Positions 3,619 to 4,691 of a DNA stretch of 64,000 nucleotides are shown here, piece by piece (positions within the stretch are counted from its first letter, which is position 1; the number at the start of each line of letters is the position of its first letter). This DNA comes from a virus. The notes beneath the pieces are model-generated. The model was not told where the DNA came from and ran no database searches. It was given only the letters and a program-made list of their open reading frames with translations. Location: positions 1 to 64,000 of the IMG/VR virus record IMGVR_UViG_3300021142_000021; one strand, 5' to 3'. A program made the translations under genes and the position numbers.

Positions 3619-4464
3619 ATGAAACAAGAAATTCGCCAAAACCCGCTGAAGGGGTACTTCAGACAATTTAAGTTATTTCTAAAACTACCTAGCGGAACAT
3701 CATATTATGCGCCTGGTGCTATAACTTTTTCAGATAATGGAGAAGTAGGAATTATGCCCATGACTGGCAAAGATGAACTTATCTTAAAGAATCCAGATGC
3801 TCTATTAAACGGTGAAGCATTGCTAGAAGTTATTAGAAGCTGCACGCCGGCGGTAAGTGATCCGCGGATATTACTAACAAATGATATCGATGCGATTATC
3901 ACAGCTATTAGATTTGCTACATATAATGATGCACTTGAGACAGAATTAACCTGCCCTGAATGTAGTCATAAGAATCTATATCCACTAGACTTGCAATATT
4001 CTATAGATAATATGTCTTTCTTAGATACAGAGTATGTTGTTAATATGGATAATGGATTAAGTATATTTGTTAAACCTTATGGTTTTCCAGAATTACTCAA
4101 AGGCCTACATGCCCAGTTTGAACAAAGCAAACTAACACGCGCTATCGAAAGTGAGAATATCACAGAAGATGCTAGACTAAAACTTTTTGCTACAGCATTT
4201 AAAGAACTATCTGTTATTACATACGAACTAATGGTTAATTCTGTATTAAAAGTTGTTGATGAAAGTAAGAAAATTAATGTGTCAGATAAGAATGATATTA
4301 AAGAATTCTTACAAAACATTGATAAGAAGAGTAGCGACAAGATTAGTGATTTAATTAAAGAAATAAATCAGATTGGTATTAAAAGAACATTTACTCCTCA
4401 TTGTGAAAAATGTAATCACGAATGGGAAAGCGAGATTGATTTTAATCCAGTAAATTTTTCATAA
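3619..4464 (+). CDS. Baseplate hub assembly / tail assembly chaperone, T4 gp26-like
   Basis: LKLPSG...MTGKDELILKNPDALLNG...AIRFATY, two CxxC pairs (CPEC, CEKC), C-terminal FNPVNFS. SD GAGGA upstream. Confidence 0.75.
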   Translation: MKQEIRQNPLKGYFRQFKLFLKLPSGTSYYAPGAITFSDNGEVGIMPMTGKDELILKNPDALLNGEALLEVIRSCTPAVSDPRILLTNDIDAIITAIRFATYNDALETELTCPECSHKNLYPLDLQYSIDNMSFLDTEYVVNMDNGLSIFVKPYGFPELLKGLHAQFEQSKLTRAIESENITEDARLKLFATAFKELSVITYELMVNSVLKVVDESKKINVSDKNDIKEFLQNIDKKSSDKISDLIKEINQIGIKRTFTPHCEKCNHEWESEIDFNPVNFS

Positions 4465-4504
4465 GGTCCTTAATTTTTCTACCTGCTGAACAATTAGGTG
4501 ACCT
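4452..4504 (+). other. Candidate programmed -1 ribosomal frameshift signal
   Basis: In-frame slippery heptamer A AAT TTT (4452-4458), 5-nt spacer, then a 12-bp bulged hairpin 4464-4475/4492-4504. Confidence 0.7.
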
Positions 4505-4691
4505 AATTCAATCATATGCTAAAGAATCATTATTACTAAGAGAACAAATAGCTGATATATGCTACTTTATGAAGGGCGGGATTGAATGGAATTCAGCATG
4601 GGGTATGAGCTTTCAAGATAGGGAGATTACAATTAAAGTTCTCAATAAGAGATTGAAAGAGCAGAACCCCGGTGGTAAGGAATATATGTAA
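4458..4691 (+). CDS. -1 frame extension of the gp26-like gene (gp51-like / lambda T-like segment, 77 aa)
   Basis: Open frame FIRSLIFLPAEQLGDLIQSYAKESLLLREQIADICYFMKGGIEWNSAWGMSFQDREITIKVLNKRLKEQNPGGKEYM*. The first ATG is only at 4569 and has no SD. Not in the ORF track. Confidence 0.7.
   Translation, partial: FIRSLIFLPAEQLGDLIQSYAKESLLLREQIADICYFMKGGIEWNSAWGMSFQDREITIKVLNKRLKEQNPGGKEYM

What the first reader, a model, noticed from the sequence alone, without database searches (positions are those of the whole stretch)
4452..4691. Programmed -1 frameshift joins a T4 gp26-like gene to a gp51-like ORF (lambda G/GT logic in a T4-like phage)
SEEN: the gp26-like ORF ends GTA AAT TTT TCA TAA, which contains a correctly phased X XXY YYZ heptamer A AAU UUU. 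Five nt later comes a 12-bp hairpin (AGGUCCUUAAUU / AAUUAGGuGACCU). The -1 frame opens only just before the heptamer (stop at 4443-4445), runs 77 codons and has no usable start until an SD-less ATG at 4569. KNOWN: tail assembly chaperones of lambda, Mu and P2 are made as G and G-T by -1 frameshifting next to the tape measure gene, whereas T4 gp26 and gp51 are treated as separate genes. INFERENCE: 281-aa and ~357-aa isoforms are made, suggesting gp26/gp51-like proteins are the G/GT equivalents. Unusually, the gene is transcribed divergently from the tape measure gene.
Basis: partly seen in the sequence, partly recalled or inferred. Interest (0 to 1): 0.75.

Follow-up and report, generated by a model that had tools for sequence, protein, structure and literature searches.

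The report
Frameshift in phage baseplate-hub chaperone gene
A giant T4-related phage very probably makes a short and a 77-residue-longer form of one tail-baseplate assembly protein by a programmed backward ribosome slip, doing with one gene what phage T4 does with its two genes 26 and 51.

Summary
The 281-codon PF12322 (T4 gp26/gp51 family) gene at 3619-4464 ends GTA AAT TTT TCA TAA, with an in-phase A_AAT_TTT heptamer (4452-4458). A 5-nt spacer and a 12-bp hairpin (4464-4504, -14.9 kcal/mol, z -3.9) follow. The -1 frame opens at 4446 and runs 77 codons past the slip site to 4691.

One sequence proves little, since 7 of 54 genes here end with such a heptamer. Conservation carries the case. 29 of 30 first relatives, 80 of 80 further IMG/VR relatives and 2 of 2 Asteriusvirus records keep an in-phase heptamer and a 71-101-codon -1 ORF. 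That ORF is homologous and coding from the slip site onward. PA5oct has no start codon in it at all. No in-frame fusion was found.

I found no published report. This scan noted the same feature in eight other genomes.

The parts
3619..4464 (+). Zero-frame gene for the short form (281 aa), a member of the T4 gp26/gp51 baseplate-hub assembly family. GAGGA at 3610-3614 precedes the ATG.
   Evidence: PF12322 at E 5e-21, 75.8 bits against a cut-off of 24.5. phrog_150 baseplate hub, E 1.2e-19. AlphaFold model pLDDT 95.1, pTM 0.90. BFVD gives 74 matches at E<=0.001, named baseplate hub or hub assembly protein. Cys112, 115, 262 and 265 are invariant in 90 sequences.
4452..4458 (+). Slippery heptamer A_AAT_TTT, in phase (X_XXY_YYZ).
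   Evidence: Read. The heptamer and its flanks, bases 4450-4468 (alignment columns 5-23), are invariant except A2 column 16 (window 4461; G in one of 16 sequences) in 16 relatives of 65-84% protein identity, synonymous positions included. An in-phase heptamer is present in 29 of 30, 80 of 80 and 2 of 2 relatives.
4459..4463 (+). 5-nt spacer (TCATA), overlapping the zero-frame stop TAA at 4462-4464.
4464..4504 (+). Stem-loop with 12 bp and one bulged U; the candidate frameshift stimulator.
   Evidence: -14.9 kcal/mol, z -3.87, 0 of 200 shuffles as stable. 92.2% of 192 cells are paired in 16 sequences, against 16-52% when the partner is slid by 1-3 columns. 5 pairs are invariant, 4 vary on one side and 2 carry one double change each. 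RNAalifold independently predicts 10 of the 12 pairs.
4458..4691 (+). -1 frame extension: 77 codons plus TAA, added to residue 280 to give the 357-aa long form.
   Evidence: Open frame. In the 37 codons before its first ATG, synonymous/non-synonymous codon differences are 983/1513 in this frame, against 285/2199 and 157/2290 in the other two. It is homologous across 27 and 35 sequences. AlphaFold gives a four-helix domain, pLDDT 85.1. It matches the gp51 tail weakly.
2..3538 (-). Large divergently transcribed gene (more than 1178 codons, cut by the record's end). It is the homolog of a virion protein and may be the tape measure.
   Evidence: phrog_58 tail length tape measure, E 6e-4 only. RaK2 annotators note similarity to a tape measure protein. 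The counterparts in PA5oct and CBB are flagged as virion proteins. A long minus-strand frame fills the upstream flank in 77 of 77 loci with at least 900 nt of flank. tblastn shows homology in 30 of 78.

Best explanation
The gene at 3619-4464 encodes a baseplate-hub assembly protein of the T4 gp26/gp51 family. Most ribosomes stop at UAA 4462 and make the 281-aa short form. A fraction slip back one base while decoding AAU-UUU on A_AAU_UUU (4452-4458), held up by the hairpin that starts 5 nt downstream (4464-4504). These ribosomes re-pair as AAA-UUU, miss the stop and read 77 more codons to UAA 4689, making a 357-aa long form with an added four-helix domain. The short form corresponds to T4 gp26 and the long form to T4 gp51 (PF12322 core plus C-terminal tail). 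One frameshifting gene thus supplies, at a fixed ratio, the pair that T4 encodes as two paralogous genes. Shown here: the signal, its phase, the hairpin, the coding nature and homology of the extension, its conservation, and family membership. Inferred: that slippage actually occurs and at what rate. Also inferred is that the pair acts as a chaperone for hub and tape-measure assembly in the manner of lambda G/GT, with the common part binding one partner and the extension recruiting another.
For: An in-phase slippery heptamer sits at the end of the gene in 29 of 30 sequences (window, 18 IMG/VR loci and 11 GenBank phages including PA5oct, RaK2, CBB, Atu_ph07 and SCTP-2). It is also present in 80 of 80 further IMG/VR loci, 10 of them contigs already in the first set (last heptamer TTTTTTC 41, AAATTTT 33, TTTTTTT 3, TTTTTTA 3), and in 2 of 2 Asteriusvirus records. 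The -1 ORF is always 71-101 codons past the slip site where its end lies within the locus (78 of the 80; 2 run off the contig). It opens only a few codons before the heptamer in most loci. PA5oct and Cassandra have no ATG, GTG or TTG anywhere in it. In 54 of 80 loci the first such codon lies 22 or more codons in (my count). The stretch before the first ATG evolves as coding sequence in the -1 frame, and the peptide right after the slip is conserved (FF, then L). Nucleotides around the heptamer are invariant at synonymous sites. The hairpin is stable and conserved in the clade, and PA5oct has its own hairpin 6 nt downstream (-13.8 kcal/mol, z -3.5). No in-frame fusion turned up: the 'longer' search found none, the best 120 close relatives are 261-286 aa, and by my reading of the table none of 149 resolvable rows among 150 representatives extends more than about 15 residues past the match. 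T4 gp26 and gp51 are both PF12322 and match each other by BLASTP at E 2e-6. The extension aligns to the gp51 tail above controls, and the long form aligns collinearly with gp51 through the junction. A complete 362,810-bp relative has only one PF12322 gene, and each of the 40 listed phage records has one place.
Against: There is no protein or ribosome-level evidence; everything is comparative. Phe-Phe at this site is also conserved as protein (T4 gp26 ends ..EFFELL), so part of the T-run conservation could be a coding constraint. Several lineages have an ATG at or near the stop (ATGA in Phosso and Atu_ph07, TAATG in Asteriusvirus and XbC2), which would allow coupled re-initiation of a separate small protein. 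Rak2-like phages show no significant downstream structure (z -0.2 to +2.2). Covariation in the hairpin is slight (2 double changes), and its arms also encode conserved residues. The match of the extension to the gp51 tail is modest: hhalign probability is 39-71% with the 27-sequence profile, and only E 0.013 with the profile that lacks Rak2-like sequences. One record (CMSTMSU, marked UNVERIFIED, gene in two pieces) lacks the signal.
Confidence: 0.8

Rival explanations
1. The downstream ORF is an independent small gene. It would be translated from an internal or overlapping start codon, or by termination-reinitiation at the gp26-like stop, with no frameshift.
For: GenBank annotators call it that way in SCTP-2, CBB, XbC2, Hallingskeid, Vibrio 2.275.O, Phosso and Asteriusvirus. 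ATG overlaps or abuts the stop in Phosso, Atu_ph07, XbC2 and Asteriusvirus. In 26 of 80 loci a start codon lies within 18 codons of the slip site or before it.
Against: PA5oct and Cassandra have no ATG, GTG or TTG in the ORF. In the window the first ATG is codon 38, has no Shine-Dalgarno run and sits inside the conserved domain. The codons before it are under coding constraint. The position of the first start is not conserved, whereas the heptamer and the -1 phase are conserved in 111 of 112 sequences.
Confidence: 0.08
2. The long form is made by transcriptional slippage of RNA polymerase on the T run, not by the ribosome.
For: The site is a run of 5-7 T that is conserved at the nucleotide level.
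Against: The run is short (5 T in the window). My recollection is that efficient transcriptional slippage needs longer runs. The exact X_XXY_YYZ phase and a hairpin 5-6 nt downstream fit ribosomal slippage. To enter the -1 frame the transcript would have to gain one base or lose two, which was not examined.
Confidence: 0.05
3. The pattern is a coincidence or a relic, and the -1 ORF is not expressed.
For: In-phase heptamers are common in this AT-rich genome. 7 of 54 genes end with one, and 5 of those also have a long -1 frame behind the stop.
Against: The ORF length, its phase, the heptamer and the amino-acid sequence are conserved down to 18-30% identity. The substitution pattern is that of coding sequence. 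The fold is predicted with confidence.
Confidence: 0.02

Closest known systems
Lambda gpG/gpGT and the conserved -1 frameshift of tail assembly chaperone genes (Xu, Hendrix and Duda 2004; recalled, seen only in the reference list of PMC9024508)
   Same: Two products share an N-terminus. The longer one is made by a -1 slip on an X_XXY_YYZ heptamer near the end of the short ORF. The gene lies in the tail module beside a very long gene. Its T4 relatives are described as assembly chaperones absent or uncertain in the virion (PMC3004832 passages).
   Different: It is a different protein family (PF12322 with a four-cysteine zinc site) and hits no tail-chaperone Pfam family. The gene is divergent from the large neighbour, not upstream on the same strand, and is far from the tube gene (tube at about 115 kb and this gene at about 199 kb in the complete relative). 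Fold resemblance to HK97 TAC 2ob9 and YqbN 3klu is below a trustworthy level.
Phage T4 gp26 (208 aa) and gp51 (249 aa), hub assembly chaperones
   Same: Same Pfam family. The short form ends where gp26 ends, just after the FF..LL motif. The long form aligns collinearly with gp51, C-terminal tail included. Both lie divergent from the operon or gene that holds the tape measure.
   Different: T4 uses two separate, divergently transcribed paralogs with no heptamer at the end of gene 26. Here and in relatives there is a single gene. The core here is about 70 residues longer. Pairwise BLASTP to T4 gp26 is not significant.
T4 gene 26 internal initiation (CDS 26' in NC_000866)
   Same: One hub gene gives two polypeptides of different length (annotation seen).
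   Different: That case is an in-frame internal start giving a shorter C-terminal product. It is not a frameshift and adds no new domain.

Membership tests
Pfam PF12322 T4_baseplate (T4 gp26/gp51 family) | Match to the family HMM above the gathering score | tested here: met
   75.8 bits against a cut-off of 24.5, E 5e-21, residues 39-270. 89 of 90 aligned relatives also match. T4 gp26 and gp51 both match.
Pfam PF12322 T4_baseplate (T4 gp26/gp51 family) | Role in baseplate hub assembly | not testable with these tools
   Known only for T4 (PMC3004832, passages).
Programmed -1 ribosomal frameshift cassette | X_XXY_YYZ heptamer in phase with the upstream frame | tested here: met
   A_AAT_TTT at 4452-4458. 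Conserved in 29 of 30, 80 of 80 and 2 of 2 relatives.
Programmed -1 ribosomal frameshift cassette | -1 ORF that lacks its own usable start and is coding from the slip site | tested here: met
   First ATG is at codon 38 without a Shine-Dalgarno run. PA5oct has no start codon at all. Synonymous/non-synonymous differences are 983/1513 against 285/2199 and 157/2290 in the other frames.
Programmed -1 ribosomal frameshift cassette | Stimulatory RNA structure 5-9 nt downstream | tested here: met
   In the window the hairpin at 4464-4504 has z -3.87 and is conserved in 16 sequences. It is absent in Rak2-like relatives, so it is not universal in the family.
Programmed -1 ribosomal frameshift cassette | Trans-frame protein observed | not testable with these tools
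   No proteome data were examined at peptide level.
Tail assembly chaperone G/GT class | Short and long products from one gene by -1 frameshift | tested here: met
   Met at the sequence level only.
Tail assembly chaperone G/GT class | Gene lies between the tail tube gene and the tape measure gene, on the same strand | tested here: not met
   The gene is divergent from the large neighbour. In the complete relative G001 the tube gene is at about 115 kb and this gene at about 199 kb.
Tail assembly chaperone G/GT class | Sequence membership in a tail assembly chaperone family | tested here: not met
   None of the 12 Pfam families hit by the protein at E<=5 is a tail-chaperone family. None is among the 25 families most often hit by the 90 relatives.
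Tail assembly chaperone G/GT class | Tail-chaperone fold (HK97 2ob9 type) | tested here: inconclusive
Tail assembly chaperone G/GT class | Binds tape measure and tube protein; absent from the virion | not testable with these tools
The CBB virion table passage lists CBB_247 and CBB_251 but not CBB_249 or CBB_250 (passage only).
T4 gp51-type long form | PF12322 core followed by the gp51 C-terminal tail (listed as PF28602 in precomputed annotations) | tested here: inconclusive
   Extension profile against gp51 family: score 28.8, E 3.2e-4. Against the tail alone: E 3.8e-5, probability 71%. Reversed control 12.6; best of 40 shuffles 15.4. It is weaker with the profile lacking Rak2-like sequences (E 0.013). 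PF28602 is not in the local library. Leans yes.

The most novel reading that the evidence does not exclude
The gp26/gp51 family would be the missing tail assembly chaperone of T4-type contractile tails. Its ancestral state would be a single G/GT-style frameshifting gene beside the tape measure gene, as kept by the jumbo phages. T4-like phages would then have resolved the two frames into two paralogous genes, gp26 as short form and gp51 as long form. That would be a natural case of a frameshift-encoded isoform pair replaced by gene duplication. It would also explain the long-puzzling 'catalytic' gp51 as the GT-like recruiting form.
Probability: 0.3. Interest if true: 0.85.

Novelty: new variant of a known kind. 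Interest (0 to 1): 0.65.

Why it matters
Programmed -1 frameshifting in tail chaperone genes is a hallmark of long-tailed phages, but to my recollection it has not been described for T4-type tails. Here the same logic appears in a different protein family. It is conserved across a very large group of jumbo myophages: 562 relatives in IMG/VR and 1114 clusters in the representative library. Cultured phages such as PA5oct, RaK2, CBB, Atu_ph07 and the 121Q-like coliphages are among them. In their records the long form is missed, and the tail ORF is either left blank or called as a truncated hypothetical protein. This corrects the annotation of a core structural-module gene. [quoted passage not shown] Finally, it offers a natural example of one frameshifting gene being equivalent to two paralogs.

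Tried and rejected
- In-frame fused forms: none found ('longer' search with the extension profile, length columns).
- Extension against T4 gp51 by BLASTP: nothing. Extension against Pfam and PHROGs: nothing. Extension profile and the gp26-like protein against PDB sequences: nothing meaningful.
- Foldseek of the extension model against PDB: no match at E<=0.001.
- Foldseek and VIA of the gp26-like model: mostly helical-hairpin matches to residues 150-234, of no clear meaning.
- PF28602 could not be searched because it is not in the local Pfam.
- The search for related loci failed with the 90-sequence alignment and with three single representatives. A 16-sequence alignment worked.
- PHROG scan of the large neighbours of PA5oct, RaK2 and SCTP-2 gave no tape-measure family.
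- No tail tube gene lies in the 82-kb record of the window.
- Literature searches that found no report of this frameshift. I saw listings and abstracts, plus passages of PMC9024508, PMC3004832 and PMC5587285. Subscription journals and bioRxiv supplements are outside the library.

Full report
**What is in the window**

The + strand ORF 3619-4464 (281 aa, GAGGA before its ATG) ends GTA AAT TTT TCA TAA. A_AAT_TTT at 4452-4458 is in phase as X_XXY_YYZ. The -1 frame is closed by a TAA at 4443-4445, opens at 4446 and runs to the TAA at 4689-4691. From the slip site this adds 77 codons, so the products would be 281 aa and 357 aa.

The first ATG, GTG or TTG of the -1 frame is the ATG at 4569, with no Shine-Dalgarno run before it. 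Five bases after the heptamer a 12-bp stem with one bulged U spans 4464-4504. Its free energy is -14.9 kcal/mol against -6.4 +/- 2.2 for 200 shuffles (z -3.87).

**Is it more than chance?**

Taken alone, no. In this AT-rich window in-phase heptamers occur at 93 of 20691 codons. 7 of 54 genes carry one in their last 15 codons, and 5 of these also have a -1 frame open for 50 or more codons behind the stop; 4 of the 5 are ordinary overlapping neighbours with their own ATG. The case rests on the missing start codon, the hairpin and, above all, comparison with relatives.

**Identity of the gene**

- The protein matches Pfam PF12322 T4_baseplate (E 5e-21) and phrog_150 baseplate hub.
- Its nearest cultured relatives are jumbo myophages: the PA5oct group (42.6% identity), Phosso, Atu_ph07, SCTP-2 and the Rak2-like, 121Q-like and CBB-like phages at about 28-32%.
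- The rest of the window fits a T4-related jumbo phage. It holds a gp55-like late sigma, gp46/47-like nuclease, gp5-, gp6-, gp25- and gp53-like baseplate genes and a 3376-aa virion protein.
- The record is an 82-kb fragment.

**Conservation of the signal**

I scanned the window plus 29 loci: 18 IMG/VR contigs of 28-84% identity and 11 GenBank phages. 29 of 30 carry an in-phase heptamer within the last 3-40 nt of the gene and a -1 ORF of 71-89 codons. The heptamer is A_AAT_TTT in the window's clade, T_TTT_TTC in PA5oct, Cassandra, Phosso, Atu_ph07, SCTP-2, Hallingskeid, CBB, Vibrio 2.275.O, RaK2, XbC2 and L021, and T_TTT_TTT in L022. The exception, CMSTMSU, is a record marked UNVERIFIED in which the gene is split in two. 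Two other Asteriusvirus records have CAT TTT TTC in phase.

A second, wider sample came from a 16-sequence profile (562 relatives found, best 80 kept, 10 of them contigs already seen). It gave 80 of 80 with an in-phase heptamer. The -1 ORF was 71-101 codons where it did not run off the contig (2 cases).

PA5oct and Cassandra have no canonical start codon anywhere in the ORF. In 54 of 80 loci the first one lies 22 or more codons in (my count). In the window's clade, bases 4450-4468 are invariant except A2 column 16 (window 4461; G in one of 16 sequences) in 16 sequences that differ by 16-35% in protein, synonymous positions and the choice of stop codon included.

**The extension is translated from the slip site**

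In the 37 codons between the slip site and the window's first ATG, pairwise codon differences among 15 sequences are 983 synonymous to 1513 non-synonymous in the -1 frame. In the other two frames they are 285 to 2199 and 157 to 2290 (L014 was left out for a one-codon insertion and L012 as a duplicate). The peptide directly after the slip (FF, then a conserved L) and the rest of the extension align across all lineages. AlphaFold with 35 sequences gives a confident four-helix domain (pLDDT 85.1), which has no clear match in the PDB.

**The hairpin**

In 16 sequences, 92.2% of cells are paired, against 16-52% when the 3' partner is slid by 1-3 columns. Five pairs never vary, four vary on one side only (UG, CG, UA) and two show one double change each. 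RNAalifold finds the same helix on its own. Covariation is thin and the arms also encode conserved residues, so the structure is supported mainly by stability and by invariance at synonymous sites. PA5oct has a different hairpin 6 nt downstream (-13.8 kcal/mol, z -3.5). Phosso and Atu_ph07 have moderately stable structures. Rak2-like phages have none that beats shuffles.

**No in-frame fusions**

- A search for longer proteins with the extension profile found none (the tool calls this weak evidence).
- The best 120 close relatives are all 261-286 aa.
- Among the 150 best cluster representatives, every resolvable row ends within about 15 residues of the end of the match (my reading; one two-stretch row could not be resolved).

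Within this clade the two-frame arrangement is thus maintained rather than collapsed, which is what one expects if both forms are needed.

**Relation to T4**

My first reading was that 'gp51-like' was wrong. BLASTP of the extension against T4 gp51 finds nothing, and in T4 gene 26 is followed by gene 25 and is divergent from 51-27-28-29. Notes from earlier sessions of this scan claimed that T4 genes 26 and 51 are the short and long pair, so I tested that.

- Both T4 proteins match PF12322 (gp26 E 8.8e-64; gp51 E 3.9e-52 over residues 1-201 of 249), and they match each other (E 2e-6).
- gp51 therefore has a tail of about 48 residues. Precomputed annotations list it as a separate family, PF28602, which the local library lacks.
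- The 27-sequence extension profile aligns to exactly this tail in a 91-sequence gp51 alignment. The score is 28.8 (E 3.2e-4), and against the tail alone E is 3.8e-5 with probability 71%. A reversed alignment scores 12.6 and the best of 40 column shuffles scores 15.4.
- The profile without Rak2-like sequences is weaker (E 0.013).
- Script-built long forms align collinearly with gp51 from residue 68 to 351, straight through the junction.
- T4 gp26 stops just after the same FF..LL motif (..EFFELL).

So the long form corresponds to gp51 and the short form to gp26. The support is strong for the core and moderate for the tail. A complete 362,810-bp relative has a single PF12322 gene, as does each of the 40 phage records listed.

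**Function and the G/GT analogy**

The passages I read of the T4 tail review list gp26 and gp51 as hub assembly chaperones. They say gp51 is required but absent from the particle, and they call its function unknown (PMC3004832).

The gene here lies about 80 nt from a large, divergently transcribed gene. A long minus-strand frame fills the upstream flank in 77 of 77 loci with enough flank, and tblastn shows it to be homologous in 30 of 78. Its counterparts are virion proteins in PA5oct and CBB. Its tape-measure identity rests only on a weak phrog_58 hit (E 6e-4) and on a RaK2 annotator's note. PHROGs gave nothing for the PA5oct, RaK2 and SCTP-2 proteins.

The gp26-like model is very confident (pLDDT 95.1). 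Its fold recurs in baseplate-hub proteins of many myophage groups (74 BFVD matches). Against the PDB, two tail assembly chaperone structures surface:

They cover most of the small chaperone chains but stay below the level the tool advises to trust. No tail-chaperone Pfam family is hit. The G/GT reading is therefore a working analogy (same expression logic, tail module, chaperone-type relatives) and not a shown membership. The test of extension-tube binding could not be run.

**Novelty**

Seven literature searches found no report of this frameshift. GenBank records either leave the ORF unannotated (PA5oct, RaK2) or call a truncated or separate hypothetical protein. The scan itself has reported the same feature in eight other genomes. 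Against the literature I rate it a new variant of a known kind: tail-chaperone-style -1 frameshifting in a different family and tail type.

Noticed in passing
window 46086-53350 (+): Tandem array of at least seven paralogous ORFs of 244-286 aa (22-48% identity, blastp E 1e-8 to 7e-80), mostly with short overlaps. The three members scanned (46086-46859, 47644-48486 and 51022-51810) hit no Pfam family. A radical SAM ORF (44692-46089) and a DUF6071 ORF (49281-50219) lie next to or within the array.
   Followed up: partly
window 3562-3569 (+) and 3590-3597 (-): The divergent intergenic region holds GATAAATA on each strand, about 50 nt before each of the two divergent start codons (3619 and 3538). 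It resembles the T4 late promoter TATAAATA (recalled). A gp55-like late sigma gene is at 13703-14641.
   Followed up: no
window 20965-21750 (+) and 12905-13669 (-): Homing-endonuclease-like ORFs (phrog_655, phrog_314) sit beside the gp5-like hub/lysozyme gene and the SbcCD-like nuclease genes. The first overlaps the end of the gp5-like ORF by about 50 nt.
   Followed up: no
L029 (Escherichia phage CMSTMSU, MH494197.1 about 292931-293787): The gp26-like gene is annotated as two overlapping hypothetical proteins, and the heptamer and frame relation are lost. The record is marked UNVERIFIED, and close relatives at 83-99% identity have an intact gene, so sequencing errors are likely.
   Followed up: partly
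window 27048-37178 (+): A single 3376-aa ORF matches phrog_10938 'virion structural protein' and carries a short head-closure-like stretch.
   Followed up: no
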